This document shows, piece by piece, positions 1-63,169 of a DNA stretch of 64,000 nucleotides; the first letter of the stretch is position 1; every line of letters starts with the position of its first letter. The stretch lies in NCBI GenBank assembly GCA_947628905.1, contig CANRBQ010000003.1, positions 336-64,335 on the forward strand, given 5' to 3'. A program made the translations under genes and the position numbers. Source of the stretch: an uncultured Bacilli bacterium (GTDB lineage Bacteria > Bacillota_I > Bacilli_A > RF39 > UBA660). The notes beneath the pieces are model-generated. The model saw nothing but the letters and a program-made list of their open reading frames with translations. It ran no database searches and had not been told where the DNA came from.

Positions 1-2
1 GA

Positions 3-1274
3 GCTTTAGGAGACGGGAACTATGATTCTTATTGTGTTGTTGATGGTATTAAAAATAATAATGGTATCACTATTGAATATAAAGATGGCGGTGTTAATTT
101 TACGGGAATAAAAAAACAAGGCACTAAATGTTATTTATATTTTGATGTTGGAAGTAGTGATCCTGTTGATAAGACATTAGCGGCATTAAAATTAAATACA
201 TTAGGAACGATTGGAAAAATAACAGGCCCAAGTTGTAATGGAAATAAAAATGAATCGTGTTATACTAGTGGATCACCAGATAATAAGAAAAATAATATGG
301 CAGAAAACGGAGTTTATGATACAGTAGATGATTATGGAAAGACATATGTTTTTCGAGGATTTATTCAAAACAATTGGGTAAAATTTGGTAAAAAAGATAA
401 TGACGATATATGGTGGAGGATTATTCGAATCAATGGAAATGGAACAATCCGATTAATATATGCTGGAACTGGTGCATCTGCTCCAGCGACATATACCAAT
501 GCAACTCAAATAGGAACAAAAGCATTTAATTCAACCTATAGTGATAATAGATATGTGGGATTTATGTATAATACAAATAGCAATAGTAGTCAAGAAGATT
601 TAGGTTCTACTCTTTCAAATAGTACAATAAAAGGAGAATTAGATACATGGTGGGGACAAACAACTTTAGGAAATTCAGGAAATAAAGAAAGAATAGATGT
701 AGATACAGGATTTTGTAATGATCGAAGTTTATCTCCAGTAGCTCATAGAAGTTATCAAGGACCTGGAGGTGGTGCAGGAACTACTCAAACAGCATATGCA
801 CCGGCACATAGAGTATTGCAAAGTGGAGGTACAAGTTGGGATACAACTGAACAAGAACCAACCCTTAAATGTGCTAATCCAAAAAGAGATTTATTTACAG
901 GACCAGGTGCTGCAGCAGGAGGTATTCAAGGAGCAACTAGTAAGATAGAAGGAAATAATAAATTAACTAATCCAGTAGGGTTAATAACTATGGACGAAGT
1001 AATATACGCAGGAGGTTTTGCGGGTCAAAATAATGATGGATACTGGCTATATACAAAACAAAATTATTGGACCATGTCTCCGTTTTGTGCGCACGGCAGT
1101 GGCGATGCTGGCGTGTTCCTTGTGAATTCGGATGGCGACCTTGGTGACAACTTCGTGAACCTCACGTATGGTGTGCGCCCAGTAATAAATCTGAAAGCTG
1201 ATACAGAGATAGATTTTCAAGATCCAGGTGGTGCTGGTACAGGAACAACATCTAATCCATACATAGTTCAATAA
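3..1274 (+). CDS. Anchored surface-protein family, paralog 1 (5' end cut by window edge); C-terminal DUF6273/DUF1566-like lectin-fold module
   Basis: Frame 3 is open from base 3. The translation upstream of the ATG at 297 (..GTKCYLYFDVGSS..TLAALKL..) aligns with paralogs 48509..50026(-) and 61172..63169. Ordered family motifs: DDYGKTYVFRG, NNWVKFG, WWRIIRINGNGTIRLIYAG, YVGFMY, GFCNDR, PTLKC, NNKLTNPVGLITMDEVIYAGG, YWTMSP, GVRPVINLK. The fold assignment is inferred from the YW..SP...GVRP pattern. Confidence 0.8.
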   Translation, partial: ALGDGNYDSYCVVDGIKNNNGITIEYKDGGVNFTGIKKQGTKCYLYFDVGSSDPVDKTLAALKLNTLGTIGKITGPSCNGNKNESCYTSGSPDNKKNNMAENGVYDTVDDYGKTYVFRGFIQNNWVKFGKKDNDDIWWRIIRINGNGTIRLIYAGTGASAPATYTNATQIGTKAFNSTYSDNRYVGFMYNTNSNSSQEDLGSTLSNSTIKGELDTWWGQTTLGNSGNKERIDVDTGFCNDRSLSPVAHRSYQGPGGGAGTTQTAYAPAHRVLQSGGTSWDTTEQEPTLKCANPKRDLFTGPGAAAGGIQGATSKIEGNNKLTNPVGLITMDEVIYAGGFAGQNNDGYWLYTKQNYWTMSPFCAHGSGDAGVFLVNSDGDLGDNFVNLTYGVRPVINLKADTEIDFQDPGGAGTGTTSNPYIVQ

Positions 1275-1952: not shown

Positions 1953-2175
1953 ATAAAATTCGCATATAATAAAAATGCTTAAATGTTGAAGGAACGAGTA
2001 TATATTATTTATGTTAAGAAAGTTCGTGGTTGATGTAAACGAATCTTAAATAATATAGAAGATGACTCTGGAGTTTAATCGATTTACTCGCGTTAAGAGT
2101 TAAAGTGCATGAAAATCATGAATTAAGGTGGTACCGCGGTTATTTTCGCCCTTAGTTTATGGTTTTTATTTGTTT
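1942..2175 (+). promoter_or_regulatory. Promoter plus Met-specific T-box leader of metG
   Basis: TTGACA (1942-1947), 17 nt, TATAAT (1965-1970). T-box sequence AATTAAGGTGGTACCGCG at 2121-2138. Candidate specifier AUG followed by A at 2062-2065 (gaagATGActc) matches the downstream Met-tRNA ligase gene. Confidence 0.8.
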
Positions 2176-2192: not shown

Positions 2193-3725
2193 ATGAAAGA
2201 AAAATATTATATTACTACCCCTATTTACTATCCTAGTGCTAACTTCCATATAGGACACTGTTATACAACTATTATCGCTGATGCTATTGCCCGTTATAAA
2301 AGATTAACTGGTTATGATGTCTTTTTTCAAACAGGAACTGATGAACATGGTGAAAAAATTGAAAAAAAAGCAAAAGAAACAGGTGTTACCCCAAAAGAAT
2401 ATGTTGATAAAATAATTGAAAATGCCAAAGATCTATGGGCATCTCTTGGAATATCTTATGATTATTTTATTCGTACTACAGATAAAAATCATGAAGAAGC
2501 AGTTCAAAAAATATTCAAAAAATTATATGAACAAGGTGATATTTATAAAGGATCATATGAAGGTTTATACTGTGTTCCTTGTGAATCATTTTGGACTGAA
2601 AGTCAAGCTGTAGATGGTAAATGTCCCGACTGTGGTCGTGAAGTAAAAATGGTAAGTGAAGAAGCATATTTCTTTAAATTATCTAAATACCAAGATAAAT
2701 TAATTAAATTTTATGATGAACATCCTGATTTTATTTTACCTCTATCTCGTAAAAATGAAATGTTAAATAATTTTATTAAACCAGGTCTAGAAGATTTATG
2801 TGTTTCTCGTACTAGTTTTAAATGGGGAATACCAGTTGATTTTGATCCTAATCATGTTGTCTATGTTTGGATAGATGCTTTATCAAATTATATTACATCT
2901 TTAGGTTATCCCGATGAAAATAGTGAATTATTCCAAAAATATTGGCCTGCTGACCTACATTTAGTAGGAAAAGAAATAGTTAGATTTCACACGATTATTT
3001 GGCCTTGTATGCTGATGGCTCTAAATTTACCTCTACCTCATCAAGTATTTGGTCATGGTTGGTTAAAAATAGATGGAGGAAAAATATCTAAAAGTTTAGG
3101 TAATTATAAAGATCCAAGAGAATATATTAAAGAATATGGAGTAGATGCTGTAAGATATTATGCTTTAAGAGAAGTACCATTTGGTAATGATGGCAATTTC
3201 TCCGAAGAAGCTCTTATATCCAGAACTAATGCCGATTTAGCTAATACTTTAGGTAATTTAGTTAATCGAACTATTAGTATGGCTCATAAATATTTTGATG
3301 GAATAACTTCTAATCCTAAAATAAATGAAGAAATAGATAATAAGTTAATAACTAAAGTTACAGCATTAAAAGATATTGTAGAAACCAAAATGAATGAACT
3401 AAAAGTAAATGAAGCTATTGATGAAATCATGGAAGTATTGCGTTTATGTAATAAATATATAGATGAAACAACCCCTTGGTCTTTAGCTAAAGATGAAACT
3501 AAAAAAGATCGTCTTGCTACAATTATATATAATCTACTTGAAAGCATCAGAATATGTGCCATTTTATTAAGTCCTTTCATACCTACAACTTCAAACAATA
3601 TTTTAACAGAACTTAATACTCAAGAAACAAATTATAAAAGTATATCTAACTTTGGCACTTTAGAAGAAAATATTAAATTAAATGAACCTAAAATACTATT
3701 TAATCGTATTGAAATAAAAAATTAA
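2193..3725 (+). CDS. metG: Methionine--tRNA ligase (short form, no C-terminal tRNA-binding domain)
   Basis: Class I signatures PSANFHIGH (HIGH) and KISKS (KMSKS). Zn knuckle CVPCESF..CPDCG. GGAGG RBS. Confidence 0.95.
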   Translation: MKEKYYITTPIYYPSANFHIGHCYTTIIADAIARYKRLTGYDVFFQTGTDEHGEKIEKKAKETGVTPKEYVDKIIENAKDLWASLGISYDYFIRTTDKNHEEAVQKIFKKLYEQGDIYKGSYEGLYCVPCESFWTESQAVDGKCPDCGREVKMVSEEAYFFKLSKYQDKLIKFYDEHPDFILPLSRKNEMLNNFIKPGLEDLCVSRTSFKWGIPVDFDPNHVVYVWIDALSNYITSLGYPDENSELFQKYWPADLHLVGKEIVRFHTIIWPCMLMALNLPLPHQVFGHGWLKIDGGKISKSLGNYKDPREYIKEYGVDAVRYYALREVPFGNDGNFSEEALISRTNADLANTLGNLVNRTISMAHKYFDGITSNPKINEEIDNKLITKVTALKDIVETKMNELKVNEAIDEIMEVLRLCNKYIDETTPWSLAKDETKKDRLATIIYNLLESIRICAILLSPFIPTTSNNILTELNTQETNYKSISNFGTLEENIKLNEPKILFNRIEIKN

Positions 3726-6991: not shown

Positions 6992-7095
6992 TAAATTATA
7001 CTTGTAACTAATAATACTCTTTAGTATAATTAAACTAATAAAGGGCTAGTAAAGACTTTAAATTTTTACTAGTCTTTTTTTAGGAGTTGATTTTA

Positions 7096-8964
7096 GTGAT
7101 TGTCTTTTCTTGTCTAAAAAATGAATTTATGACTTATGTAAGAGAAGAAACTATAAGTAATAAAGTTTATGATGCTTATAAAGAAATATTTAATAAAAGA
7201 ACTAAATTAAGTCAAATAAAAGCTTGGGCTAATAGCTTACCTCATATGGCAGGAATAATCTCAGATTTACCAGAAAATACAGGTATAACAATTGAATATG
7301 GTATACCTCTTACTAGTAAAAGTATTGATATGGTTATAAGTGGTTATGATTTAAATCATAAACCTATAATTATAATTGTCGAACTTAAACAATGGTCTTA
7401 TACTAAATTAATTAAATCAGTAGATGGAGTAGTAAGAACTCAAATTAATAACAAAGAAAAAAATGTTCTTCATCCTGCTTATCAAGTCTTATCATATGCT
7501 GAACTTTTAAAAGGTTATAATCTAACTATTGCTAAAGATAATATATCTGTTATTCCAACTGTCTATCTTCATAACTATGATTTAAATATTAATGATCCTT
7601 TATATAATAATAAATATAAACCCTATTATCAAAAAATTTATATGTATGGTCGTAATGAAGCTTTAGAATTTAAAGAATTAATAACTAGTTTAATAAAATA
7701 TGGGGATAACTTAAATATTATTAACAAAATAGATAGAAGCCCTATAAAACCTACTAAAAAATTATTAAACGAAATAATAAATATGACTAAAGGCCAAAAA
7801 GTCTTTAATTTATTAGATGAACAAAAAGTAATCATGGAAGAAATAACTAAATTAGCTCATCAAAGTTTTATTGAAAATAAAAAACAGACTATTATTATTA
7901 AAGGAGGCCCAGGAACAGGTAAATCAATTCTGGCTATTAATGCTTTAGGAGAACTATTAAAAATTGGTTTAATGGGTGCCTATGTATCTAAAAATATGGC
8001 TCCAAGAAAAGTTTATAAAAACATGATAACAAATGGTTCTAATGAAATAAGTATAAATGAATTATTTAAAAGTTCTAGTTATTTTTTTCATGTTAACCAA
8101 AATAAATATGATTTTTTATTAGTAGATGAAGCTCATCGTCTTCAAGAAAAATCTGGATTACATAATAATTTAGGAGAAAATCAAATTAAAGAAATTATAA
8201 ATGCTAGTAAATTAAGTGTCTTTTTTATCGATGAAAAACAAGCAATAACTGTTAAAGATATAGGAACAATAAAAAATATTGAATATTATGCTAAAATCTT
8301 AAAATCTCGTATTAGTACTTATGAATTAACAAGCCAATTTCGTTGTAATGGCAGTGATAATTATCTAGGTTTTATTGAAGCATTACTATACAATAAAAAA
8401 GAAAAACCAAAATTTAATTTTGATTTTCAAGTCATAGATTCACCTCAAGAACTAAAAGATATAATAACCACCAAAAATACTAATAATAATGCTCGCCTCA
8501 TCGCTGGCTTTTGTTGGCCTAGAAAATCATTCACTGCCGATAATCAAGACTATCATGACATAAAAATTGGTGATTTTTCTATGAGTTGGAATCTAAAACA
8601 TGGTGAACCATTTGCTACAAGAGAAAATGCTATTAATGAAATAGGATGTATTTATAATGTTCAAGGTTTAGAATTTGATTATATTGGTGTAATAATTGGC
8701 CCTGATTTAAAATATCAAAATGGCAAAATAATTACGGATTATAAAGCCCGAGCTAATACTGAAAAATCATTATATGGTCTCCAAACAAAAATAAAAGAAG
8801 ATAAACAAAATAAAGAATATTATGAAAATATTGCCGACACTCTTATTAGAAATACTTATAGAGTATTACTAACAAGAGGAATTAAAGGCTGTTATGTTTA
8901 TGCCTGCGATCCAAAATTACAACAATATTTAAAAAGAATGGAAACTCATAAATTACATTTATAA
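7096..8964 (+). CDS. DUF2075-family nuclease-helicase-like ATPase (Schlafen-type helicase core)
   Basis: N-terminal PD-(D/E)XK-like SIDMVISG..IIIIVELKQW. Walker A GGPGTGKS, Walker B LLVDEAHRL, FFIDEKQ, SQFRCNGS. GTG at 7096 sits 9 nt after AGGAG; the start is uncertain (range 7087-7129). Confidence 0.75.
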   Translation: MIVFSCLKNEFMTYVREETISNKVYDAYKEIFNKRTKLSQIKAWANSLPHMAGIISDLPENTGITIEYGIPLTSKSIDMVISGYDLNHKPIIIIVELKQWSYTKLIKSVDGVVRTQINNKEKNVLHPAYQVLSYAELLKGYNLTIAKDNISVIPTVYLHNYDLNINDPLYNNKYKPYYQKIYMYGRNEALEFKELITSLIKYGDNLNIINKIDRSPIKPTKKLLNEIINMTKGQKVFNLLDEQKVIMEEITKLAHQSFIENKKQTIIIKGGPGTGKSILAINALGELLKIGLMGAYVSKNMAPRKVYKNMITNGSNEISINELFKSSSYFFHVNQNKYDFLLVDEAHRLQEKSGLHNNLGENQIKEIINASKLSVFFIDEKQAITVKDIGTIKNIEYYAKILKSRISTYELTSQFRCNGSDNYLGFIEALLYNKKEKPKFNFDFQVIDSPQELKDIITTKNTNNNARLIAGFCWPRKSFTADNQDYHDIKIGDFSMSWNLKHGEPFATRENAINEIGCIYNVQGLEFDYIGVIIGPDLKYQNGKIITDYKARANTEKSLYGLQTKIKEDKQNKEYYENIADTLIRNTYRVLLTRGIKGCYVYACDPKLQQYLKRMETHKLHL

Positions 8965-8968
8965 AATA

Positions 8969-9511
8969 TTAAAAACTTCTCTTCTTATGAACTTTATATA
9001 CTCCATAACCTGATGCTGCTCCACCCATTATTAATAACCCTAATATAGTATCTTCATCCCCATCATCATTATCTTTATTTTCTTCATTAACATAAGTAAC
9101 ATCTTTTTTATATTCACAACTACCATCATCTTTTTCTGCTAAAGAATTATAGTTTATAGCATTTGTATCTGTACATCCTAAAACATAATAAATACAACTA
9201 TCATCACTCATATCTGCTTTAGGATTATAATTTTTAGCTTCTTTATCCATGCATCCTTTTATATAGTAAGTACAACTGCCATCATCACGTGTTGCGCTAC
9301 TATTATAATTCTTTGCGCTTTTATCCGTACACCCATATACATATGCTGGTGTACAAGTACAAGATTTGCTAGTAGTTCCATCATTACATAATTGCATACC
9401 ACTTGAGGAACAACCAGCTACTCCTCCATGATGAGAACAACAACCACTTCTTGCCTGTACCTTAACAATTGGTATTAATAAAAGAATAAAAAATAATAAC
9501 CATTTTTTCAT
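8969..9511 (-). CDS. Small Cys-rich, C-terminally anchored surface protein with three GC.D..A.NYN..A..DDGSC.Y repeats
   Basis: Signal peptide MKKWLLFFILLLIPIVKVQA (Met 21 of the ORF, GAGG RBS). CCSHHGGVAGC motif, three tandem ~25-aa Cys repeats, acidic linker and a TM anchor. Confidence 0.6.
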   Translation of the reverse strand: MKKWLLFFILLLIPIVKVQARSGCCSHHGGVAGCSSSGMQLCNDGTTSKSCTCTPAYVYGCTDKSAKNYNSSATRDDGSCTYYIKGCMDKEAKNYNPKADMSDDSCIYYVLGCTDTNAINYNSLAEKDDGSCEYKKDVTYVNEENKDNDDGDEDTILGLLIMGGAASGYGVYKVHKKRSF

Positions 9512-9575
9512 TTTTACCTCAACTCCATAATTCAATTTTATCACAAAATAAAAGAGTAAACTATATGACATTACT

Positions 9576-10631
9576 CTAATACTTTATTTTATAACTAACA
9601 TCATTCATTTCACATGTTGGTCTAAATCCTGGTTCAGCTTTAATTACATCTGGTATTCTATTTACAATATCTGCACAAGTAAGTTTTACTGTATCCGGTT
9701 TATTAATCGTAACAGTTGTTTCTGCATCCCCATAAATAGTCCATTCATTAGTATCAAAATCATCAGGTCCATAAACTTTACCAACAGATTCTGCTTCAAT
9801 AGTAATACCTTCTTCAGTCTCTAATATTGCAACTGCTCTCATTCCTGTTGCATCCCCTGCTTTAATATCCATTTTTAAAGTATCACTATGTAAATCAATT
9901 TCACTAGTTGTTGGAATAGTTTCACTTTTCATCTTTTTAGGTGTTAAATTCAGCTTTTGAGCTAACCAACCAACTGTATTCCACATATAAGAAGGCATAT
10001 ACTCTCTATTATTAATTATTTTATTTCTTTCTTCTTCACTTATTTTATCAACAATTGCAATCTGTTCATCAAATTCATCTAATGTTAAACCCGCTCCATG
10101 AACCTTTGCAAGTGCTATTCCATAATCTTCAACATTATAAGAACTACTTCCTTTAATTTTAGTTATACCGTGACTAGAACCCGCAATAGATGTAATCATA
10201 TTACCCCAAAAAACATCTTGATATCCACATCCTGTAATAGTAACATTATTTGCTTTAGCTAAAATATCAAGTTCATGATATAAAGTAGGATTAGAATTTT
10301 TAGCATAAAAACATTCTTCAGAAGTTGTAATAACATTAACTCCATTAGTAACACAACATCTTATTTCATTACTAACATCATTTAAATAACTCATTGTCGC
10401 AATCACGGCAATATCTGGTTTCTTTTCTTTTAATAATTCATCTAAATTAGAAATATCATTAATTGTAACTCCCCTATTTTCTGAACCTATTATAACTCCA
10501 ATATCTTCTCCAATAACATCTGAATTAATATCAACAGCTCCAACAATATCTCCCCCTAAATCATAAATATATTTCATAATATATTTACTCATTTTACCAC
10601 AACCAATTTGCATTACTTTAATTTGTTTCAT
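9576..10631 (-). CDS. NAD(P)-binding oxidoreductase, DapB-N / amine-dehydrogenase-like
   Basis: N-terminal Rossmann motif [12 protein letters not shown]. Length and layout resemble the 2,4-diaminopentanoate dehydrogenase / DapB-like family. Weak, motif-level call only. Confidence 0.4.
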
Positions 10632-11532
10632 TTAAATCAACTCCTTCTTCTCTAATCATATCCGCAAATTCAACTTTAAATCTTTCAATTTCTTTTAATT
10701 TTGCATCTTCATAAATATTTTTAGCATTACAAATAGCTTTATAAAAATGTTTTAAAGTAACTATTTTATTATTATCATATAAAGCATAAGTAAAAGCATT
10801 AGCAACGATAGTTAAACATATATCTGGATATCTAGATGCAATCTCATATACTCTTTTATATTCATCCGTCATTTCTACAATAAAACGCATTATTTTTTCT
10901 TTAATAAAATCTGTATAATTACATTTAACCCCTATTTGTTTTTCTAATTTAGGAATAGAACCCATTAAAATCATCACCGTAGTATCTTTATCAGCTTCTA
11001 ATACTTCTATCTTTTGAAATCTTCTTAAAAAAGCTCTATCTCTTAAAATATAATGTTCATACTCTTCTGTTGTTGTTGCTCCAATCATTTTAATAGTACC
11101 TCTATCTAATCCGGCTTTTAACATATTAGCAAAGTCCATACCACCCTCTTTATTAACTAAAAGATGTGTTTCATCTATAAAAACAATTACATTATCTTTA
11201 CCTGCTAATTCTTTAACTAATAAATCTATTCTATTTTCACTAGTTCCTCCTACTTCTGTACTACCAATTAAACTACTTATATTTATTTTAATTATTTGAT
11301 AATTAAGTAAAACATCTGGTACATATCCCTTAATAATTCGGTAAGCTAATCCTTCCACAATTGCTGTTTTACCTATTCCAGGTTTACCTACTAATAAAGC
11401 ACTTTTCTCAGGAGTAAGTAAAGTAAGAATCATTTGTTTAATCTCATTTTCTCTTCCAATCGCTGGATCTGTAATATATTCTTTTTCTGTTAAATTTTCT
11501 CCATAACGCTCTAACATACTAATTCCTTCCAT
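10618..11532 (-). CDS. Stand-alone Clp/Hsp100 D1-like AAA+ ATPase
   Basis: [50 protein letters not shown], Walker [37 protein letters not shown]. Collinear with the first AAA module of ClpA/B/C, but the protein ends after it. Overlaps the downstream gene by 14 nt. Confidence 0.7.
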
Positions 11533-11613
11533 AATATATTCCTTTCTATCTTCTAACTATATTATATCATAAAAGAGTCTATTTAAAAATAAAAAAGCAA
11601 AGTACTTATTACT

Positions 11614-11994
11614 TTACTTAACCATAACTAGTTGATTAATCCATAATCCATGTAAATTACAATAATCTAAAGCTTCTAATACTTCTTCATTTTTATCTAA
11701 ATTAAATTTTGCTAAAGGCTCCATATTAGGCTCTAAACTAACTTTTTTAATCTCTTTATTCGTAACTAAATAAATCCATTTAATATAATGTTTATCTTCC
11801 ATTGGATGATTAACTTCTCCTACTCTAATAGTTACCTCATCATTATTAATATTTACAACCGGTACATGTTTTTCTTTTGCCGCCTCAACATCATTACATT
11901 TTAATTTAACCATTTTATTGCCACAACATGAATCACAAGCTCTATCTATTGGAACAATCTCTCCACATTCTAAACATAACATATATTCTTTCAT
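11614..11994 (-). CDS. Desulfoferrodoxin-type superoxide reductase
   Basis: N-terminal CxxC..CC metal site (CLECGE..CDSCCG), EKHVPV motif, HPMEDKHYIKWI. ATG at 11994 follows GGTGA. Confidence 0.75.
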   Translation of the reverse strand: MKEYMLCLECGEIVPIDRACDSCCGNKMVKLKCNDVEAAKEKHVPVVNINNDEVTIRVGEVNHPMEDKHYIKWIYLVTNKEIKKVSLEPNMEPLAKFNLDKNEEVLEALDYCNLHGLWINQLVMVK

Positions 11995-12036
11995 TTTTAT
12001 CACCAATTCTATTTTATCAAATATTATTATTTAAAT

Positions 12037-13671
12037 CTATCTTTTATAAATATTTTCCTGAATTTGCTCTAAACCTAATTTATCAGTATAACTAATATTA
12101 ACTAATCTAGCTTCTCTAAAAATATCTTCAATATCATCTTGTTCAAAGTCATCACTTAATAAATCTAAATTAACTTCAAAAGTAAATTCATAATTCTTAT
12201 CAGCTTCTACATCCCGCGCCACATATTTATTTACTTTTACTGTTTCTACATCTTCATCTTGAAATCTTCTTAAAGTTAAATATACATATTCTTCATCATT
12301 ACTTTCTGTAACTTTTAAAACATTATAAGTTTTTATAAAACTAACATTATAATTATTTTGATTATCATAATTTTTATTATCAGTTAATATTTTATAATTT
12401 TTTTCATTAACATAAATAGTTTTATATATTTTAAAATTATTAACATATATTTTTTTATTTTTTAAACTATTAATAAATAATTTAAATATATCTTTATTCC
12501 AAGAAAAATTCTCTATATCTTCCTCCAAACATATAGCATTATATCCACATTCATCAATCTCTATTTCTACTCTTAAATTATCTTTAAAATCAGGATATTT
12601 ATATTCAATTTTAACTATATCCCCTAAAGTATTATCTATTTTAATTTCATCATAATCATATATCATTAAAGTATTTTTCATTTCTATATTTCTTGAAATA
12701 GTTTTTGTATCAGTTTTTTGATAATCATAAATAATCTCTGTATTAGTTATTTCTATTGCTCCAATAGTAAGTCCTGTTCCCATTAATAATATAATAATAA
12801 ATAACCTAGTTAAAATTATCCAAGCTTTCATTTTTCTTTTACAAATAAAATTTATTGCTATCTCTAAGAAAAAAGCTCCGCCCAAAAATAAAGAGAGTAC
12901 TAAAAGTAATATTCCATAATATTTAACTCCATTTATAAGTAAATAAATCATTAAAGCAAGAATAATTGTAATTCCTATTAAAAAACATACTATAAAGAAA
13001 CTAATAAATATAAAAAATGCTTTAAATATTACATCACATATTCTATTAACCACATCCCTATTATCAGTATCTTCATCTATTTCTTCAGGTCTATTTTTAT
13101 AACCTAAATCTTTTTCTTCTTCATCTTTTTCTATTATATTATTCGCAAATTTTTTAAATAATCTTTTATCAAGCATTTTTATAAAAAATAATATCGCAAT
13201 AATTGTATAACTTAAATCAATAACAAACTCCCATATATCGGCAAAAATACTTCCAACTGGACTTCCTAAATCTAAAAACAAATTTTCACCCAAATTTTTA
13301 ACTAAACTAAAAGGTAATCTAATTATTCCAATAATAAGCATAATTAAAGCAATTTCAATAATAATTTTAATAATATCTTTCGAACTTTTATTATTAAACG
13401 AATCTACAAAATCACTTATTTTATTAGTAATTCTTGTTAAAAAATCCGTATTAACCTCTTCTTTTTTCTCCTTAACTTTATAAGCGGCAAGCATTTCTTT
13501 AACAATTAAATCTAATTCTCCCAACTCTTTAACTGCTTCTTCCTCAGTTAATCCTGCATTAACTTTTTCTTCAATATATCCTTCATATTCACTAATAATA
13601 TCATCAATTTCTGCATCTTCTAAAACATCTAATCTTTTTCTTAATTTACTTAAAAACTCATTCTTTTTCAT
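12037..13671 (-). CDS. DUF1700-type membrane protein (PadR partner) with large extracytoplasmic C-terminal region
   Basis: N-terminus FLSKLRKRLDVLEDAEIDDIISEYEGYIEE is typical of DUF1700. Several TM segments. Overlaps the upstream PadR gene by 14 nt. Confidence 0.65.
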   Translation of the reverse strand: MKKNEFLSKLRKRLDVLEDAEIDDIISEYEGYIEEKVNAGLTEEEAVKELGELDLIVKEMLAAYKVKEKKEEVNTDFLTRITNKISDFVDSFNNKSSKDIIKIIIEIALIMLIIGIIRLPFSLVKNLGENLFLDLGSPVGSIFADIWEFVIDLSYTIIAILFFIKMLDKRLFKKFANNIIEKDEEEKDLGYKNRPEEIDEDTDNRDVVNRICDVIFKAFFIFISFFIVCFLIGITIILALMIYLLINGVKYYGILLLVLSLFLGGAFFLEIAINFICKRKMKAWIILTRLFIIILLMGTGLTIGAIEITNTEIIYDYQKTDTKTISRNIEMKNTLMIYDYDEIKIDNTLGDIVKIEYKYPDFKDNLRVEIEIDECGYNAICLEEDIENFSWNKDIFKLFINSLKNKKIYVNNFKIYKTIYVNEKNYKILTDNKNYDNQNNYNVSFIKTYNVLKVTESNDEEYVYLTLRRFQDEDVETVKVNKYVARDVEADKNYEFTFEVNLDLLSDDFEQDDIEDIFREARLVNISYTDKLGLEQIQENIYKR

Positions 13672-14416: not shown

Positions 14417-14435
14417 AAAAGCTTTCTAAAAATTC

Positions 14436-15356: not shown

Positions 15357-15368
15357 ATTTAACTCCTC

Positions 15369-26600: not shown

Positions 26601-27140
26601 TTAAATATTAATAAAAGTTTTATATTCACTTTCTTTAAGTTTAATTTTTCTATCTCTTCTAATACATTCTAAAGTATTACCTAAACACCAATCAGCACTA
26701 AAACCAAAATCATTACATATTTCTTTTAAATCTGCACTAGACATCATTAATTTGCCTAATTCGTAATATCCAATATTACTTCTTTTCGTATGTATTTCTT
26801 TAGCAAACTCTTCCTGTGTTAAGCCTTCAATTTTTCTAATAATTCTAATATTTTTTCCTAAATATTTTAAATCTAATTCATTCTTAAATTCATATATATT
26901 TCTATCAAAAGTAGTAGTTAATCCAAAAATATAATCAACAGGCACTCCATAATAATAAGAAAGCTTAACTAATTGCCTCAAAGAAACATTTTGATATCCA
27001 TTTTCCCATGAATTAATTAATGATTGTGATACTCCCAAATCTTTAGATAATTCTGCTTGAGTTATACCCTTTAAACTTCTTAAAAATTTAATTCTAACTT
27101 CTATTACAGTTAAATCTTTATTATCACTTGTAATTACCAT
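26601..27140 (-). CDS. XRE-family regulator with two Cro/C1 HTH domains (regulator A, divergent from paralog 2)
   Basis: Two HTH_3 units: LRSLKGITQAELSKDLGVSQSLINSWENG and IRKIEGLTQEEFAKEIHTKRSNIGYYELG. Confidence 0.85.
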   Translation of the reverse strand: MVITSDNKDLTVIEVRIKFLRSLKGITQAELSKDLGVSQSLINSWENGYQNVSLRQLVKLSYYYGVPVDYIFGLTTTFDRNIYEFKNELDLKYLGKNIRIIRKIEGLTQEEFAKEIHTKRSNIGYYELGKLMMSSADLKEICNDFGFSADWCLGNTLECIRRDRKIKLKESEYKTFINI

Positions 27141-27372: not shown

Positions 27373-28860
27373 ATGGAATTTGTAACATTGAAAAAGGATA
27401 ATACTAAAAAAGTATTATTAGTTTTAGTTGTATTTATAGCTATAGTAGTCACTATAGTTTCTTTAAGTTCAAGAGCAAAATATCAAGTAACCAGTAGTGC
27501 TCAAATAGTAAAAGGAACAGTAAATTATAAACCATATGATTTTAAAATAGTCGAAATTAGAAAAGAAAATGATGCTGGAGTTTATGAATTAACAGATGAA
27601 GTACCAACAACTGGTTATGAAATAAATGAAAAAGATAGTAAATGCATGATAAATGACACAGAACAAGATACAACAGCAGTGTTAAAAACCATAAATGGAA
27701 ACCATACATTTGCTAATCTAAAAAAGATGGATAAATGTACTTTGTATTTTAGTAAAGAGAAAACAGCTGGAGAACAGTTATTATCAAAAAGAACAACAGA
27801 CGAAGGAGAAGATGGATTTACAAATATAGATATAGATGAGCATACAGATGAAAATGGCAAATCTATATTGTATAGTGACGAAGATGACTTTGGAACAACA
27901 TATTATTTTAGAGGAAAAGTAAAAGATAATTGGGTAAAGTTCGGACAAACAAGTGAAGGACAAGATATCTGGTGGCGAATTATCAGAATAAATGGCAATG
28001 GCTCAATAAGAATGATATATACTGGAACAGGCAGTAATGCTCCAACTACAGATGGATTTTTGAATAATAATGGAACAGGTAGTCAATTACAAACAAATGC
28101 ATATAATGAATATTATAATGACAATAAATATATAGGTTATATGTATGGAACACAACCAACAGGTACTGTTAATAACGAAACCACACCAACAATTAACTAT
28201 GATCAAGCTCATGAAAATAATTATGATAGTGATATTAAAAAAATATTAGATAATTGGTATAGTACTAATCTAAAGGCAAGTTATGCTCAATATATAGATC
28301 CAAATTCCGGTTTTTGCAATGATAGGAAAGCAGCAATAATGAGTAGATATGGATATGGAACAGATGGATATGGTAATCATCTAACAGCATATGCGGCAGT
28401 AGATAGATTGCTAGATACAAATTGGAATGCCAATGCAAAACACACACCAACGTTCAAGTGTGCTCGAAAAGAAGATACATTCACACTTCCAGATGCCAAG
28501 AAACCAAACGGAGATGACTATGGCAATCATAAATTAAAAGCTAATAATGGAAAAGGAGAAAATAGCCCAATAGGATTAATCACCATAGATGAAGCAGTAT
28601 ATGCAGGAGGATATTATTACAGAGCAAATAATCAATCCGATAATAAAGAATTTTATTTATATACAGGCCAATATTATTGGACCATGTCACCGTATTCCTT
28701 TTACGGTACTTATGCTAATATGTTTTATATACATTTAAATGGCAATCTCAACAACAACGACGTAAACAATGCGCGAGGTGTACGCCCTGTCATAAATCTC
28801 TCTGCTAATGTAAAATTATCAGGAGATGGTACAAAAGATACCCCATATGAAGTATCTTAA
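27373..28860 (+). CDS. Anchored surface-protein family, paralog 2 (most divergent)
   Basis: Signal anchor VLLVLVVFIAIVVTIV. DDFGTTYYFRG, NWVKFG, IWWRIIRINGNGSIRMIYTG, YIGYMYG, GFCNDR, PTFKC, SPIGLITIDEAVYAGG, YYWTMSP, GVRPVINLS. GAGGAG RBS. Confidence 0.85.
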   Translation: MEFVTLKKDNTKKVLLVLVVFIAIVVTIVSLSSRAKYQVTSSAQIVKGTVNYKPYDFKIVEIRKENDAGVYELTDEVPTTGYEINEKDSKCMINDTEQDTTAVLKTINGNHTFANLKKMDKCTLYFSKEKTAGEQLLSKRTTDEGEDGFTNIDIDEHTDENGKSILYSDEDDFGTTYYFRGKVKDNWVKFGQTSEGQDIWWRIIRINGNGSIRMIYTGTGSNAPTTDGFLNNNGTGSQLQTNAYNEYYNDNKYIGYMYGTQPTGTVNNETTPTINYDQAHENNYDSDIKKILDNWYSTNLKASYAQYIDPNSGFCNDRKAAIMSRYGYGTDGYGNHLTAYAAVDRLLDTNWNANAKHTPTFKCARKEDTFTLPDAKKPNGDDYGNHKLKANNGKGENSPIGLITIDEAVYAGGYYYRANNQSDNKEFYLYTGQYYWTMSPYSFYGTYANMFYIHLNGNLNNNDVNNARGVRPVINLSANVKLSGDGTKDTPYEVS

Positions 28861-48508: not shown

Positions 48509-50026
48509 TCAAGATATTTCGTATGGAAAATCAATTGTGCCAGTTCCTGTTATTGTTACATCAGACTTCAAATTTATGACAGGTCGAACACCCCATGTAA
48601 AAAACACACTATAAATTCCTAAACTTCTTGCATCTACAGTAGCTACAGTAGCATCAGGTGCAAGAGAAGGTGTCATCGTCCAATAATATTGTCCTGTAGA
48701 AATCCAACAGCCATAATTAATCTTGCTTGCTAATCCTCCTGCAGCTATTGCTTCATCCAAAGTTATCAATCCTATCGGATATGTTAATTTATTATTTCCA
48801 TTTATCTCATTTCCTTCACTATCCATTGTTCCTTGCGCATTAGGTCCCGTAAATAAATCTCTTGTTGGATTTGCACATTTTAATGTTGGTTCTTGTGTTG
48901 AATCATAACTTGTAGTTCCACTCACATGAGTTCGATCATATCCTGCATATGCTGTTTTCTCTTTACCATATCCTGCGACTCCCCAATTATCATGAGCTTT
49001 TGGAGATAGTTCTCTATCATTGCAAAAGCCTGTTTCTACATCTATTTTATCTCTGTATTGTTCCTTTATTCCCGAACTTCCTATATACCAATCATCTATT
49101 TCTTTCTTTATTGTACTATCTTTTTCGTTTTGATGTGCATTACCATAATTCATCGCATCTACTGGACCATTCATATATCCTACATACGTATTATCAGAGG
49201 CAACATTATTATACTTTTGAACAGTTGGATCGCTACTATTTGATGTTGTTATAGCAGCTCCTTTTCCACCATTTTGATTTGCCCATCTACCATCTGATGG
49301 CTTATCTATTCCAGAATATATCATTCTTATTGTTCCATTGCCATTGATTCTAATGATTCGCCAATACATGTCTGCAAATCTTACCCAGTTATTATCTATT
49401 GTTCCTCTAAATACATATGTCTTTCCAAAGTCATCTTCTGTTTCATATATTCCCTTATCTTGTGATGTACAATTACTGCCACTTTTATTATGGCTTTCAT
49501 CATTAGTGCCATTATCACATGCTGTTGTACTTATTGCAGAAGGTAAATCCCCAGTTTTTGATAAATGTAATGCCTCTAGAGTAGCATCAGGATCACCACT
49601 TGTACCAACATCAAAATATAAATAACATTTAGTTCCTTGTTTAGTAACTCCTTTAAAATTTACTTTACCACCCCTATATTCTACACTTATTCCACTAACA
49701 ACTTCACCATTAACTTCACAATGAGTTGTATTTTTATTAGAGTTACTTAAAGGTTGTAATTTATATCCACTTACTGGTACATCTCCATTTTTATAACTTC
49801 CTGGAATACCTTTACCATCTGAACCTTTTTCTTGTATTTTTACTGCTATTAAATTAAAATCTGCTAAACTATAACTAACTTTCCCTTTAACTATTTGTAT
49901 ATTACTTGTTACATGATATTTTGCTCTACTATATGTTATATATACTATTCCTATTAACAATACTAATATTGTTATTGTTAATACTATTTTCTTTTTTCTT
50001 CCTTTACTTAACTTCTCTATCCTCAT
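48509..50026 (-). CDS. Anchored surface-protein family, paralog 3
   Basis: Signal anchor IVLTITILVLLIGIVYI. GTKCYLYFDVGTS, TLEALHLSKTGDLP, DDFGKTYVFRG, MYWRIIRINGNGTIRMIYSG, GFCNDR, PTLKC, NNKLTYPIGLITLDEAIAAGG, YYWTMTP, GVRPVINLK. Confidence 0.85.
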   Translation of the reverse strand: MRIEKLSKGRKKKIVLTITILVLLIGIVYITYSRAKYHVTSNIQIVKGKVSYSLADFNLIAVKIQEKGSDGKGIPGSYKNGDVPVSGYKLQPLSNSNKNTTHCEVNGEVVSGISVEYRGGKVNFKGVTKQGTKCYLYFDVGTSGDPDATLEALHLSKTGDLPSAISTTACDNGTNDESHNKSGSNCTSQDKGIYETEDDFGKTYVFRGTIDNNWVRFADMYWRIIRINGNGTIRMIYSGIDKPSDGRWANQNGGKGAAITTSNSSDPTVQKYNNVASDNTYVGYMNGPVDAMNYGNAHQNEKDSTIKKEIDDWYIGSSGIKEQYRDKIDVETGFCNDRELSPKAHDNWGVAGYGKEKTAYAGYDRTHVSGTTSYDSTQEPTLKCANPTRDLFTGPNAQGTMDSEGNEINGNNKLTYPIGLITLDEAIAAGGLASKINYGCWISTGQYYWTMTPSLAPDATVATVDARSLGIYSVFFTWGVRPVINLKSDVTITGTGTIDFPYEIS

Positions 50027-61171: not shown

Positions 61172-63169
61172 ATGAAAAAGAATAAAAGAGTAATAATAAT
61201 AGTAAGTGTGTTAATAGGAGTAATAGGAATATCTTTGGCATATTTTGTAGGTAAAACAATATTCAAAGGAACAGGAGCAATGACCGAAGGAAAGACTGCC
61301 ACCTTAAATGGATCAACATTAGAAGTAAATGGTAATATAAACTTTAATGATGAAAATATATATCCAGGGCATGAAACATTATCTAAAATAGAAGTAATAG
61401 CAACCGGTAATAATGAATTAATCGCATATAATTTAATATGGAATGGAATAAATAGTTTAAATACAGAATTAAAATATAAAGTATATAAAACAAAAGAAGA
61501 TAGAAAAGATATAATACTTACATGTAATAAGAAAAAGAAAGTAACAAATGGAATACAATATTTAAATGAAGAATGTGAAACAAATATAGAAGAGATAGAA
61601 TTAATAAAAGAAGGAGTAATAGAACATAGTGAAATAGAAACAACAACAGAACTAACAGATAATGAATATATAACATCTAGTCAAACAGGAGAGAAAGTAT
61701 ACTACTATATCATAATAGAATATCCAAACTTAACAGAAAAAGAAACAGAAGAACAAAACGAAGATATAGGGGAAGGATTTAAAGGGAAAGTACATGCCAA
61801 GATAAGTGATAGTAAAGCAGATATAAACCTAGTAGCGTTTTACAAAGAAACAGAAGCAGGTTCAGGACAATATGAAGAAGTAGAAGATATACCACAAGGA
61901 TATGTACTAAATAAAGAGCAAACAAAGTGTAATAATGAAGATATAGAATTAGAATGGGATAATAATAAATTAATAATATCTAATTTAACTAAAAGTGGAA
62001 CATCATGTTATTTGTATTTTGATGTTAAAAAATCTAGAAGTTCTAGTGAAACACTAACAGCCTTGCATTTATCAAAAACTGGAGATTTACCTTCTACTGG
62101 GATAAGTACATATGCATGCGATGATAATACAAATGATTCGAGTCATGCAACAGTTAAAAATTGTACATCACAAGATAAGGGAGTGTATGAAACAGAAGAT
62201 GACTTTGGAAAGAGTTATGTATTCCGTGGAACAGTAGATAATAACTGGGTATACTTTGCTAACATGTATTGGAGAATCATCAGAATAAATGGAAATGGTA
62301 CAATAAGAATGATATATGCTGGAACAACAAAACCAAGTGAAGGAAAATGGGGTAATACAGGAGATAATGCGGCAATAAAGACTAGTACAGGAGCAACAAC
62401 AAGTGCATTTAATGATTACTATAATGATAATAAATACGTAGGGTATATGTATGGAACAGCAAAAACTGGTTCATATAGTAACGAAACTACACCAACTACT
62501 AGTTATAAGGAAGCTCACGAAAATAATCATGATAGTACAATAAAAGAAGAAATAGATAAATGGTATATAGGAGATACAGGAATAAAAGAAGAATATAGAA
62601 ATAAAATAGATGTAGAAACAGGATTTTGTAGTGATAGACAACTATCTCCAGAAAAACATAGCACTTTTTTAGGTGCAAAAGACGCAGGAGCGGGATATTC
62701 AAAAACTCAAACGGCTTATGCACCAGCTCATAGAGTATGGCAAAACGAAAGCAATAATAGCTTTGATTCAATACAAAAACCAACACTAAAATGTACAAAT
62801 AAAACAAATGATTTATTTACAGGTCCAAATGCTCAAGGAACAAAAGATAACAAAGGGTATGAAATAAAAGGAAATAATAAATTAACAACACCAGTAGGAT
62901 TAATAACCATGGATGAAGTAATCATAGCAGGAGGATTACCTGGAAATAGCAACTATGGATATTGGCTATACACAGGTCAATATTATTGGACAATGACGCC
63001 GGCTTTCTTCAATGGTTCAAATGCCAACGTGTTCCGTGTTGGTACAGATGGATATCTCATAGGAGATGGTGTGGTCGGTGCATATGGCGTGCGCCCTGTA
63101 ATAAATCTGAAATCTAATATAACAATATCAGGAAGTGGTACAATAGATTCTCCATATGAAATATCTTAG
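61172..63169 (+). CDS. Anchored surface-protein family, paralog 4 (longest; extra N-terminal module)
   Basis: Signal anchor. An extra ~250-aa N-terminal region (LAYF..TLNGSTLEV..NIYPGHE is faintly TasA/SipW-leader-like; low confidence). Then SCYLYFDV, TLTALHLSKTGDLP, DDFGKSYVFRG, MYWRIIRINGNGTIRMIYAG, YVGYMYG, GFCSDR, PTLKC, NNKLTTPVGLITMDEVIIAGG, YYWTMTP, GVRPVINLK. Confidence 0.85.
   Translation: MKKNKRVIIIVSVLIGVIGISLAYFVGKTIFKGTGAMTEGKTATLNGSTLEVNGNINFNDENIYPGHETLSKIEVIATGNNELIAYNLIWNGINSLNTELKYKVYKTKEDRKDIILTCNKKKKVTNGIQYLNEECETNIEEIELIKEGVIEHSEIETTTELTDNEYITSSQTGEKVYYYIIIEYPNLTEKETEEQNEDIGEGFKGKVHAKISDSKADINLVAFYKETEAGSGQYEEVEDIPQGYVLNKEQTKCNNEDIELEWDNNKLIISNLTKSGTSCYLYFDVKKSRSSSETLTALHLSKTGDLPSTGISTYACDDNTNDSSHATVKNCTSQDKGVYETEDDFGKSYVFRGTVDNNWVYFANMYWRIIRINGNGTIRMIYAGTTKPSEGKWGNTGDNAAIKTSTGATTSAFNDYYNDNKYVGYMYGTAKTGSYSNETTPTTSYKEAHENNHDSTIKEEIDKWYIGDTGIKEEYRNKIDVETGFCSDRQLSPEKHSTFLGAKDAGAGYSKTQTAYAPAHRVWQNESNNSFDSIQKPTLKCTNKTNDLFTGPNAQGTKDNKGYEIKGNNKLTTPVGLITMDEVIIAGGLPGNSNYGYWLYTGQYYWTMTPAFFNGSNANVFRVGTDGYLIGDGVVGAYGVRPVINLKSNITISGSGTIDSPYEIS

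What the first reader, a model, noticed from the sequence alone, without database searches (positions are those of the whole stretch)
1062..1185. Abrupt adenine-depleted, GC-rich ~100-nt patch at the C-terminal lectin-fold strands of paralog 1: DGR variable-region signature without an RT in view
My hand count for 1081-1180 is A14 C25 G33 T28 (58% G+C, 14% A), in a gene and genome where A is the commonest base. Thirty-three consecutive codons (1080-1178, ccg..cgc) have no third-position A and encode no Lys, Glu or Gln. A-ending codons resume immediately afterwards (cca gta ata aat). The patch ends in the GC block GGTGTGCGCCC. Paralog 4 shows a weaker version (63001-63096, hand count A18 C19 G30 T29) ending in GGCGTGCGCCC. 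Paralog 3 shows none. The location (last strands of a DUF1566/DUF6273-like module), the length, the A depletion and the GC-rich 3' boundary (IMH-like) are what diversity-generating retroelements leave in their target VRs. No reverse transcriptase or template repeat occurs in this window, so this would be a remote target or a relic.
Basis: partly seen in the sequence, partly recalled or inferred. Interest (0 to 1): 0.7.

Follow-up and report, generated by a model that had tools for sequence, protein, structure and literature searches.

The report
DGR variable region, remote target
The GC-rich, adenine-poor patch is the variable region of a surface-protein gene that a diversity-generating retroelement rewrites from an RNA template; close relatives carry the matching template genes and reverse transcriptase, but this contig does not.

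Summary
Bases 1081-1180 are 58% G+C and 14% A in a 25.6% G+C window, the most extreme 100-nt stretch in 64 kb. Thirty-three codons in a row lack a third-position A.

The patch (1077-1180) lies between the conserved YWTMSP and GVRPVINL motifs of a four-paralog, DUF6273-like surface-protein family. Across 115 homologues these columns are hypervariable and restricted to NNY-encoded residues.

Related low-GC gut Bacilli carry about 280-nt structured non-coding RNA genes with AAY-rich template repeats. These repeats match the patch and stop matching right after GGTGTGCGCCC(A). In two relatives the same RNA sits beside bAvd and a reverse transcriptase. There the TR/VR mismatches fall on template adenines: 14 of 14 in one, 14 of 16 in the other.

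In the closest relative, four stand-alone template genes lie next to the orthologue and its paralogs, with no RT within at least 12 kb.

P1 versus the nearest available template has 16 of 30 adenine sites changed against 7 of 71 other sites. P4, P2 and P3 are progressively AT-eroded relics.

The window holds no RT and no template. The contig ends just upstream of P1, where the orthologous locus has a template gene.

Verdict: a real DGR-written variable region. Whether it is currently active is unproven.

The parts
1..1274 (+). Paralog 1 (P1), 3' 423 codons plus stop. The full protein is 517 aa (P0001) and starts about 282 nt before the window. It has an N-terminal membrane helix, a beta-sandwich domain and a large C-terminal DUF6273-like module.
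   Evidence: The AlphaFold model has mean pLDDT 85. Foldseek matches phage DUF6273 proteins at E 1e-5 to 5e-4.
1077..1180 (+). Variable region (VR) of P1, TCTCCG...GGTGTGCGCCC, 104 nt. The scaffold codons are free of A. The variable codons are NNY, derived from template AAY codons.
   Evidence: Composition is. Against template L001+5888, 16 of 30 template-A sites differ versus 7 of 71 non-A sites (P=6.6e-6). Against the orthologue P0002, codon positions 1 and 2 differ at 25% and 35%, versus 8% in the flanks; position 3 differs at 16% versus 18%.
1170..1181 (+). GC-rich 3' boundary, GGTGTGCGCCC(A). This is the last stretch shared by the VR and every template repeat, so it is IMH-like. After it the VR reads GTAATAAAT while the templates read ATATCCTTT.
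61172..63169 (+). Paralog 4 (P4), 665 aa.
62996..63096 (+). P4 variable region, partly eroded. It peaks at 53% G+C, carries A-ending codons (TCA ACA GGA ATA GCA) in the scaffold, and still ends GGCGTGCGCCC.
   Evidence: It has 24 non-A mismatches to the best available template.
27373..28860 (+). Paralog 2 (P2), 495 aa.
28687..28787 (+). P2 variable-region relic. It keeps the template-like AAY run (AAT GGC AAT CTC AAC AAC AAC GAC GTA AAC AAT), but its scaffold has drifted towards A and T.
   Evidence: 21 of 30 template A sites are kept. Of 18 non-A changes, 17 are to A or T (G>A 8, C>T 7, T>A 2). G+C is 38%.
48509..50026 (-). Paralog 3 (P3), 505 aa. Its VR relic at 48582-48673 is fully eroded (39% G+C, ends GGTGTTCGACC).
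   Evidence: 27 non-A mismatches plus indels.
26601..27140 (-). Double-HTH (XRE-type) gene, divergent from P2. The same arrangement occurs at 50190-50645 (+) for P3, at 60567-61025 (-) for P4 and at 63464-63931 (-) at the window end. The orthologous loci in relatives have it too.

Best explanation
Bases 1077-1180 are the variable region of a chromosomal target gene of a diversity-generating retroelement.

**How it works.** A template repeat (TR) is carried in a structured non-coding RNA of about 280 nt. A DGR reverse transcriptase, working with bAvd and in this lineage usually a small MutS-like protein, copies it. The enzyme misincorporates opposite template adenines. The cDNA then replaces the stretch of the gene that runs from about ATGTCTCCG to GGTGTGCGCCC(A).

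**Why the composition looks like this.** Every template A is randomised. The template therefore keeps A only where variation is wanted, in positions 1 and 2 of AAY codons. All scaffold codons are written without A (GTG, TTC, CTT, TCG, GGC, CGC, CCG). Copying such a template into a 25% G+C genome produces exactly what was seen:
- a sharp G+C-rich, A-poor island;
- no third-position A;
- no Lys, Glu or Gln;
- an abrupt end at the GC block.

**Where the machinery is.** The RT and the template are not on this contig, so P1 is a remote target. In this lineage the template RNAs are often stand-alone genes placed next to the targets. The closest relative has such a gene upstream of the orthologue, and the window's contig ends before the corresponding position. 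This contig position is inferred.

**History.** P1 has been rewritten since it diverged from its closest known orthologue. P4, P2 and P3 are older copies being eroded by AT-biased mutation.

**Shown:** the composition, family-wide NNY hypervariability, the existence and structure of cognate template RNAs, their adjacency to bAvd-RT in relatives, and adenine-specific TR/VR mismatches in relatives.

**Inferred:** that this genome itself encodes the RT and a cognate template, and that the system is still active.
For: **Composition and codons.**

**Family pattern.** In 115 homologues, the columns between YWTMSP and GVRPVINL have entropies of 2.6-3.6 bits, set between invariant scaffold columns (A, V, F, V, G, L, V). 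At the variable sites K+E+Q+M+W make up 4.6%, against 17.5% elsewhere (P=1e-85). N, Y and S each make up about 15%.

**Orthologue comparison.** P0002 comes from a rabbit-gut Bacilli MAG and is about 90% identical in DNA outside the VR. Identity drops to 57% over 1081-1140. The excess differences are confined to codon positions 1 and 2.

**Template RNAs.**
- A metagenome scan found non-coding AAY-rich copies of the VR.
- They have an extended -10 box, a 5' GGTTAATCT, a conserved 3' domain and a terminator.
- Seventeen unique TRs have third-position A in 9 of 584 codons. A fills 41% of positions 1-2, mostly as AAC (118) and AAT (73). Mean G+C is 47%.
- The consensus fold has a 5'-3' closing helix and hairpins, with compensatory changes in 22 of 52 pairs.
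- There is no Rfam match.

**Closest relative.** Four such RNA genes lie on the orthologue's contig. One ends 466 nt upstream of the P0002 start codon.

**P1 against the nearest template.** 16 of 30 A sites are changed, versus 7 of 71 non-A sites.

**Canonical cassettes with a homologous RNA.**
- L037 reads: family target, MutS_I, TR RNA, bAvd, RT. All 14 TR/VR mismatches are at template A and 0 of 76 are at non-A sites (P=2e-9). Its VR is 59% G+C and 16% A in a 24.7% G+C genome. The L037 target is 38% identical to P1 over 328 aa (E=1e-57).
- L039 reads: target, three tandem TRs, bAvd, RT. It has 14 A mismatches and 2 non-A mismatches.

**Literature.** DUF6273 C-termini are known DGR variable regions (PMC11792537). 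Remote targets and MutS-like accessory genes are known (PMC5758913).
Against: - No TR and no RT could be shown for this genome. Only the 64.4-kb contig is available, and it holds neither.
- The best available template comes from another genome. It leaves 7 non-A mismatches and a one-codon indel against P1.
- Even within the related MAG, no VR/TR pair is perfect; the best has 7 non-A mismatches.
- P1 and its orthologue share three non-template bases at presumed A sites (CTT, GAT, TAT). Fully independent rewriting would not predict that unless selection acts on them.
- No hairpin follows the P1 VR.
- In four well-sampled human-gut clusters of the family, the VR is invariant across strains while other columns vary. 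Many family members are therefore fossils, and P1 could be one too.
- No RT was found within 10 kb of any stand-alone template gene. The link between those genes and an RT is by homology of the RNA, not by co-occurrence in one assembled genome.
Confidence: 0.85

Rival explanations
1. The patch is a fossil. A DGR wrote it in an ancestor, but this genome has since lost the RT or the cognate template. The sequence is now an ordinary, slowly eroding coding segment.
For: No RT or TR is in the window. P2, P3 and P4 in the same window are clearly eroding relics. Four well-sampled relatives have VRs that do not vary between strains. P1 and P0002 share three non-template bases at A sites.
Against: P1 has no third-position A in 33 codons and 58% G+C, under strong AT pressure that has visibly eroded its three paralogs. 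Its composition equals that of VRs lying beside intact cassettes: 59% G+C and 16% A in L037, 56% and 15% in L039. P1 differs from its orthologue at positions 1 and 2 of the variable codons, three to four times more often than in the flanks, so at least one rewriting followed their split. The closest relative keeps four intact, structurally conserved template genes.
Confidence: 0.3
2. The patch arises by RT-independent gene conversion. The AAY-rich non-coding copies would act as silent DNA cassettes, as in antigenic-variation systems, and the patch would be a conversion tract.
For: There are many paralogs and many donor-like copies per genome. VR/TR pairs within the related MAG look mosaic.
Against: Conversion copies donors faithfully, whereas here the differences concentrate at donor adenines: 14 of 14 in L037, 14 of 16 in L039 and 16 of 23 for P1. 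The donors are promoter- and terminator-flanked structured RNAs with covariation. A homologous RNA lies directly beside bAvd-RT in three loci. Silent cassettes would have no reason to avoid third-position A or to be made of AAY codons.
Confidence: 0.04
3. The patch is a compositional quirk. It could be a horizontally acquired or recombined fragment from a higher-GC genome, or a result of local selection on codon usage or mRNA structure, with no templated mechanism.
For: A sharp compositional discontinuity is also what a foreign insert would give.
Against: The patch is in frame, inside a conserved domain, and bounded by motifs conserved in all paralogs and in more than 100 homologues. The same island recurs at the same position in relatives. 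Its bases match a family of template RNAs.
Confidence: 0.02

Closest known systems
MutS-like (MSL) accessory-gene DGRs, 'Architecture D' of Wu et al. 2017 (PMC5758913), which includes the Legionella pneumophila DGR
   Same: The RT-adjacent cassettes of this lineage combine bAvd, a DGR-type RT and a small MutS_I-domain protein. Mismatches are adenine-specific, running from TR to VR. The elements are chromosomal, not phage-borne; the template RNA is absent from the viral, phage and plasmid collections.
   Different: Here the template RNA is multi-copy. There are tandem arrays next to the RT (L039) and stand-alone, separately transcribed genes at least 12 kb from any RT, placed beside targets. 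The target family is different. For the window's own genome the RT has not been seen.
Treponema denticola DGR (TvpA plus up to seven remote paralogous targets; PMC5758913, PMC4891356)
   Same: One retroelement serves several dispersed paralogous surface-protein genes. Most VRs have no RT nearby. Paralogs are at different stages of activity or decay.
   Different: The Treponema element uses an HRDC accessory gene and one TR next to the RT. Its targets have a formylglycine-enzyme-type CLec fold and it is a spirochaete. Here the accessories are bAvd and MSL, the module is DUF6273-like, the hosts are low-GC Bacilli, and the templates are dispersed as well as the targets.
Phage DGR targets with a DUF6273 domain (Faecalibacterium prophages Lelie, CP11, Roos, Pioen: PMC11792537; tentaclins and target2 proteins: PMC10743442)
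   Same: The VR maps to the C-terminus of a DUF6273 or C-lectin-like module. The P1 model matches phage DUF6273 proteins by Foldseek at E 1e-5 to 5e-4. Pfam DUF6273 aligns to the last 50-60 residues including the VR.
   Different: Those are phage tail or receptor-binding proteins inside compact cis cassettes. P1 is a chromosomal, membrane-anchored protein with a much larger conserved module (WRIIRINGNG...GFCNDR...YWTMSP). It is paired with an XRE regulator, and its sequence similarity to Pfam DUF6273 is below the gathering score.
Bordetella phage BPP-1 Mtd/Brt/Avd prototype
   Same: The logic is the same: AAY codons in the TR, a C-terminal VR, a GC-rich element marking the 3' end of TR/VR homology, and a structured RNA region 3' of the TR (PMC3240598, PMC6182149).
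   Different: No DNA hairpin follows the P1 VR. The TR RNA has its own promoter and terminator. A 5'-3' helix encloses the TR. The element is not phage-borne.

Membership tests
DGR variable region / target gene | A template repeat exists that matches the VR, with mismatches essentially confined to template adenines. | tested here: inconclusive
   No TR is in the window. The nearest TR comes from the related MAG (L001 5788-5888). It gives 16 of 30 A sites changed versus 7 of 71 non-A sites, plus a 3-nt indel (P=6.6e-6). The bias is strong but the pair is not a clean cognate. For family members beside cassettes the criterion is met: L037 has 14 A and 0 non-A mismatches; L039 has 14 A and 2 non-A.
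DGR variable region / target gene | A DGR-clade reverse transcriptase, usually with Avd, is encoded in the same genome. | not testable with these tools
   Only this 64.4-kb contig of the genome is available. The window has no RT motif or RVT_1 hit. Related genomes carry bAvd-RT(-MutS_I) next to a homologous TR RNA. About 74 kb of the closest relative's contig has no RT.
DGR variable region / target gene | Variable codons derive from AAY. Variation falls in codon positions 1 and 2, and the residue repertoire lacks K, E, Q, M, W and stop. | tested here: met
   K+E+Q+M+W are 4.6% at variable sites versus 17.5% elsewhere in 115 homologues (P=1e-85). Between P1 and its orthologue, positions 1 and 2 differ at 25% and 35% versus 8% in the flanks, and position 3 at 16% versus 18%. 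Among TR codons that contain A, AAC (118) and AAT (73) dominate.
DGR variable region / target gene | A GC-rich element (IMH-like) lies at the 3' end of TR/VR homology. | tested here: met
   GGTGTGCGCCC(A) at 1170-1181 is identical in P1 and in all stand-alone TRs. The sequences diverge immediately after it.
DGR variable region / target gene | A DNA hairpin or cruciform lies just downstream of the VR, as required in BPP-1 and seen in several DGRs. | tested here: not met
   No inverted repeat was found in 1150-1330. L037 and L039 have 12-13-bp stems with 4-nt loops, but these lie after the stop codon, about 90 nt from the VR, and look like terminators. This feature is not universal among DGRs.
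DGR variable region / target gene | The VR is hypervariable within populations or between strains. | tested here: inconclusive
   No other strain of this species is in the databases; P0001 is a singleton. Between species the VR is the most divergent part of the gene. In four well-sampled clusters of the family the VR does not vary between strains.
DUF6273 (PF19789) / C-type-lectin-like DGR target fold | A Pfam DUF6273 match above the gathering score. | tested here: not met
   P1 scores 17.9 bits, P2 22.7, P4 17.7 and P3 has no hit, against a cutoff of 23.5. The match covers only profile positions 110-172, the C-terminal end. Many homologues carry a precomputed PF19789 hit.
DUF6273 (PF19789) / C-type-lectin-like DGR target fold | Fold similarity to DUF6273 proteins or to C-type lectin domains. 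| tested here: inconclusive
   The model has pLDDT 85. In the viral library, several DUF6273 proteins match at E 1e-5 to 5e-4 with probability up to 1.0, but TM scores are low at 0.2-0.5. The PDB search gave no hit below E=1, only 26-32-residue matches to CD23, SP-A and MBP lectin domains at E about 2. The profile search of PDB sequences found nothing.

The most novel reading that the evidence does not exclude
This lineage of uncultured low-GC gut Bacilli may run a 'split' DGR. One bAvd-RT(-MutS-like) locus would work in trans with a multigene family of stand-alone template RNAs. Each RNA is structured, has its own promoter and terminator, and sits beside members of a multigene target family, so different paralogs are rewritten from different templates.

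The P1 patch would be the product of such a trans template, whose gene lies just beyond the contig end.

Large DGR surveys require a repeat within 1 kb of the RT (PMC8144416, Methods). They would therefore miss this architecture systematically.
Probability: 0.5. Interest if true: 0.65.

Novelty: new member of a known kind. Interest (0 to 1): 0.5.

Why it matters
This case shows that a DGR target can be recognised from raw composition alone when the genome is AT-rich. The template must avoid adenine everywhere except at the sites to be varied, so the variable region stands out as a G+C-rich, A-poor island.

It assigns a mechanism to a very large unannotated family of surface proteins, with more than 3,700 homologues in gut Bacilli, including relatives of 'Mycoplasma sp. 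CAG:776'.

Following the patch outwards also uncovered a structured RNA family that is not in Rfam. It carries the templates, often far from any reverse transcriptase. RT-anchored DGR detection pipelines would miss such templates, so DGR targets and templates may be undercounted in these bacteria.

Tried and rejected
1. **Template in the window.** I converted the VR to an adenine-tolerant pattern (C to M, G to R, T to W) and allowed up to 20 mismatches. Only the VR itself and one AT-rich chance hit came up.

2. **Exact look-up of P4.** It is not in the public gene index.

3. **The single genome-contig scan.** I used GTGTTCCTTGTGNNTTCGGATGG. It returned three VRs and no TR. In hindsight it required CTT and GAT, where the templates have ATT, TAT or CGT and mostly AAT. 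The scan therefore excluded those templates and says nothing about their absence.

4. **Viral contigs.** The scaffold pattern gave 0 hits. The protein query and the family profile gave only two homologues, with no RT nearby. The TR 3'-junction pattern gave 0 hits. The TR-like pattern gave one unrelated DGR on a 276-kb contig.

5. **RT families followed from that contig's RT**. P0195 and P0194 belong to a different DGR with a pilin-like target. P0186 has a related but distinct TR. P0173 lies next to gidA with contigs broken just upstream. P0173 led, to the informative P0255, P0254 and P0240 loci.

6. **Database checks on the template RNA.** Rfam had no family for it. The phage and plasmid collections had no match.

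7. **Structure searches.** The PDB fold search and the PDB sequence-profile search gave no significant hit.

8. **Hairpin downstream of the VR.** None was found.

9. **An RT in the closest relative MAG.** I could not find one.
Full report
**1. The observation**

The window is 25.6% G+C, and A is its commonest base (25,429 of 64,000). Bases 63001-63096 are A18 C19 G30 T29.

Over all 100-nt windows, G+C averages 25.6 (sd 6.7) and A averages 39.8 (sd 7.6). Only the windows starting at 1080 and 1081 reach 58% G+C. All seven windows with A<=14 lie in this patch. The second-highest G+C peak of the whole window is paralog 4's patch.

The 33 codons at 1080-1178 have no third-position A and encode no K, E or Q. 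Third-position A is 43.6% in the rest of the same gene, so the chance of such a run is about 6e-9.

**2. What carries it**

Four paralogous genes lie in the window:
- P1, to base 1274 on the plus strand. The full protein is 517 aa and begins about 282 nt before the window.
- P2, 27373-28860 (+).
- P3, 48509-50026 (-).
- P4, 61172-63169 (+).

Each is preceded by a divergent double-HTH XRE gene.

The proteins share a long conserved module: WRIIRINGNG, GFCNDR, PVGLIT.DE and YWTMSP, then about 30 unalignable residues, then GVRPVINLK. The patch is exactly the unalignable stretch.

Pfam DUF6273 aligns to this C-terminal end, just below its cutoff. Many homologues carry a precomputed DUF6273 hit.

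An AlphaFold model (pLDDT 85) matches phage DUF6273 proteins in the viral structure library at E 1e-5 to 5e-4. It has no significant match in the PDB. The literature places DGR variable regions at the C-terminus of DUF6273 and describes that domain as C-lectin-like (PMC11792537, PMC10743442).

**3. Family-wide signature**

The family has more than 3,700 members. In 115 aligned C-termini, invariant scaffold columns (A, V, F, V, G, L, V, G-V-R-P) alternate with columns of 2.6-3.6 bits entropy.

At the variable sites N, Y and S each make up about 15%. K, E, Q, M and W together make up 4.6%, against 17.5% in the rest of the proteins (P=1e-85). That is the residue repertoire of NNY codons, as expected from mutagenised AAY codons.

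The closest orthologue is P0002, from rabbit-gut MAG GCA_947630575.1. It is about 90% identical in DNA outside the patch and 57% identical over 1081-1140. In the 3' part of the patch, codon positions 1 and 2 differ at 25% and 35%, against 8% in the flanks. Position 3 differs at 16% against 18%. The patch has therefore been rewritten at particular codon positions since the two lineages split.

**4. The templates**

The window has no template and no reverse transcriptase.

A metagenome scan for an AAY-rich version of the 3' half of the patch found 14 loci. Twelve are non-coding copies of the variable region in 25-30% G+C contigs.

All have the same anatomy:
- an extended -10 box (TGnTATAAT);
- a 5' end GGTTAATCT;
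- the template repeat, 95-113 nt, TCTCCG...GGTGTGCGCCC;
- a conserved 3' domain of about 130 nt (ATATCC, GGTTAAGGCT, TAGGATACAAGATTAGCC, GGGAAACC);
- an intrinsic terminator in several copies.

RNAalifold predicts that the 5' end pairs with AGATTAGCC in the 3' domain, which encloses the template. It also predicts further hairpins. Of 52 pairs, 22 show compensatory changes. The RNA is not in Rfam and not in the phage, plasmid or viral collections.

In 17 unique templates, third-position A occurs in 9 of 584 codons. A fills 41% of positions 1-2, mostly as AAC (118) and AAT (73). Mean G+C is 47%.

This explains the composition of the patch. A template that must not vary outside chosen codons has to avoid A everywhere else. 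Its copy in a 25% G+C genome then stands out.

**5. Link to the window's gene**

The orthologue's contig in the related MAG carries four of these RNA genes. They are at L001 5763-6038, 6059-6336 and 9243-9535, and at L024 18531-18814. The third ends 466 nt upstream of the P0002 start codon, just beyond its XRE gene.

The window's contig is 64,400 nt and P1 starts about 282 nt before the window. The contig can therefore extend at most about 118 nt upstream of P1. It ends before the position where the relative has the XRE and template genes. This is an inference from synteny.

Against the nearest available template (L001 5788-5888), P1 differs at 16 of 30 template-A sites and at 7 of 71 other sites, with one codon of length difference (P=6.6e-6). 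Homology stops right after GGTGTGCGCCC(A) at 1170-1181.

The other paralogs fit less well:
- P4 has 24 non-A mismatches.
- P2 has 18 non-A mismatches. Seventeen are changes to A or T, and P2 keeps 21 of 30 template A sites.
- P3 has 27 non-A mismatches plus indels.

I read this as a series. P1 was rewritten recently in evolutionary terms. P4, P2 and P3 are no longer refreshed and are being eroded by AT-biased mutation.

**6. Link to a reverse transcriptase**

No RT lies within the roughly 10 kb held around any stand-alone template gene. About 74 kb of the relative's 101-kb contig has no RVT_1 gene. The nearest uninspected sequence is at least 12 kb from any of its template genes.

I followed AT-rich DGR RTs through the protein database. 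This led to three loci where a homologous RNA, with the same 5' end, closing helix and 3' motifs, lies directly beside bAvd and an RT.

- **L037.** The order is family target (676 aa), ISL3 transposase, MutS_I protein, TR RNA, bAvd, RT. All 14 TR/VR mismatches are at template adenines and none of 76 non-A sites differs (P=2e-9). The VR is 59% G+C and 16% A in a 24.7% G+C genome. Its target is 38% identical to P1 over 328 residues (E=1e-57).
- **L039.** The order is family target, three tandem templates, bAvd, RT. There are 14 A mismatches and 2 non-A mismatches.
- **L038.** The order is pilin-like target, TR RNA, MutS_I, bAvd, RT.

The closing helix is kept through compensatory changes in these RT-adjacent copies. 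The pairings are GGGATAATCT/AGATTATTCC, GGTTAACCT/AGGTTGACC and GGCTAATCT/AGATTAGTC, read directly.

MutS-like accessory genes and remote targets are known DGR features (PMC5758913).

**7. Cautions**

- The RT and the cognate template of this genome have not been seen.
- Within the related MAG no VR/TR pair is perfect; the best has 7 non-A mismatches. Either further templates exist elsewhere or some divergence has followed the last rewriting.
- P1 and P0002 share three non-template bases at presumed A sites.
- No hairpin follows the P1 VR.
- In four well-sampled human-gut clusters of the family (relatives of 'Mycoplasma sp. CAG:776'), the VR is identical across strains while other columns vary. 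Many family members are therefore fossils. I cannot say whether P1 is being diversified today.

**8. Verdict**

As a kind of thing it is known: a DUF6273-type DGR target, remote from the RT. The member is new. It belongs to an unannotated surface-protein family in uncultured low-GC Bacilli.

The most novel reading that the data allow is that this lineage keeps its templates as a dispersed family of stand-alone structured RNA genes acting with an RT in trans. RT-anchored surveys require a repeat within 1 kb of the RT (PMC8144416) and would miss that arrangement.

Noticed in passing
L001 5763-6038, 6059-6336, 9243-9535; L024 18531-18814; L010-L013, L015, L017-L023: There is a family of stand-alone, structured non-coding RNA genes of about 280 nt that carry DGR template repeats. 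Each has its own promoter and terminator. They occur singly or in tandem (spacing about 286-298 nt), and none has an RT within the roughly 10 kb held around it (at least 12 kb for the L001/L024 contig). The family is not in Rfam or in the phage, plasmid or viral collections.
   Followed up: yes
L001 8310-9218, L024 18879-19787, L012/L013/L022 upstream of the TR, L032 2689-4136: A YhcG/DUF1016 (PD-(D/E)XK nuclease) gene lies immediately next to template-RNA genes in several loci. In one locus it follows the MutS-like gene of a bAvd-RT cassette. This could be chance, a shared insertion hotspot, or a functional partner.
   Followed up: no
L039 4546-5288: Three tandem template repeats precede one bAvd-RT pair. 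Only the last repeat carries the full 3' RNA domain.
   Followed up: partly
window 60444-64000: The XRE gene plus paralog unit is tandemly duplicated with a 2,897-nt period (60444-60795 versus 63340-63692, 82-90% identity). A fifth paralog probably starts just beyond the end of the window.
   Followed up: partly
window 7087-19152: This is a very AT-rich (20-22% G+C) block with strongly negative GC skew, made of defence-like genes. It contains a Schlafen-type helicase, an AAA ATPase, a NOV_C protein, an Mrr-nSTAND3 NTPase and a LigD phosphoesterase plus primase-polymerase protein.
   Followed up: no
window 29123-31319: An AAA_21 (AbiEii/OLD-like ATPase) gene and an RloB gene form a pair directly downstream of paralog 2.
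   Followed up: no
window 1977-2156: A T-box leader (99 bits) lies upstream of the methionyl-tRNA synthetase gene at 2193-3725.
   Followed up: no
window 50782-55950, 44125-45099, 33544-36906: Several genes suggest a gut-mucosa lifestyle. There is a 1,722-aa M60/enhancin-like peptidase with FN3 and F5/8-C domains, a choloylglycine (bile-salt) hydrolase, and dockerin- and cadherin-like-domain proteins.
   Followed up: no
L026 8286-11571, L033 7780-11565: Related 25-30% G+C gut bacteria carry a second, distinct DGR. It consists of a target gene, TR, bAvd, RT and MutS_I. The target is a prepilin-type N_methyl protein in L026 and has no Pfam annotation in L033. The cysteine-rich VR (NCN motifs) is unrelated to the P1 family.
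   Followed up: partly
Protein clusters of P0054, P0086, P0074, P0111: Family members from human-gut 'Mycoplasma sp. CAG:776' relatives have variable regions that are identical across many strains and samples. The DGR appears to be inactive or lost in those species.
   Followed up: partly
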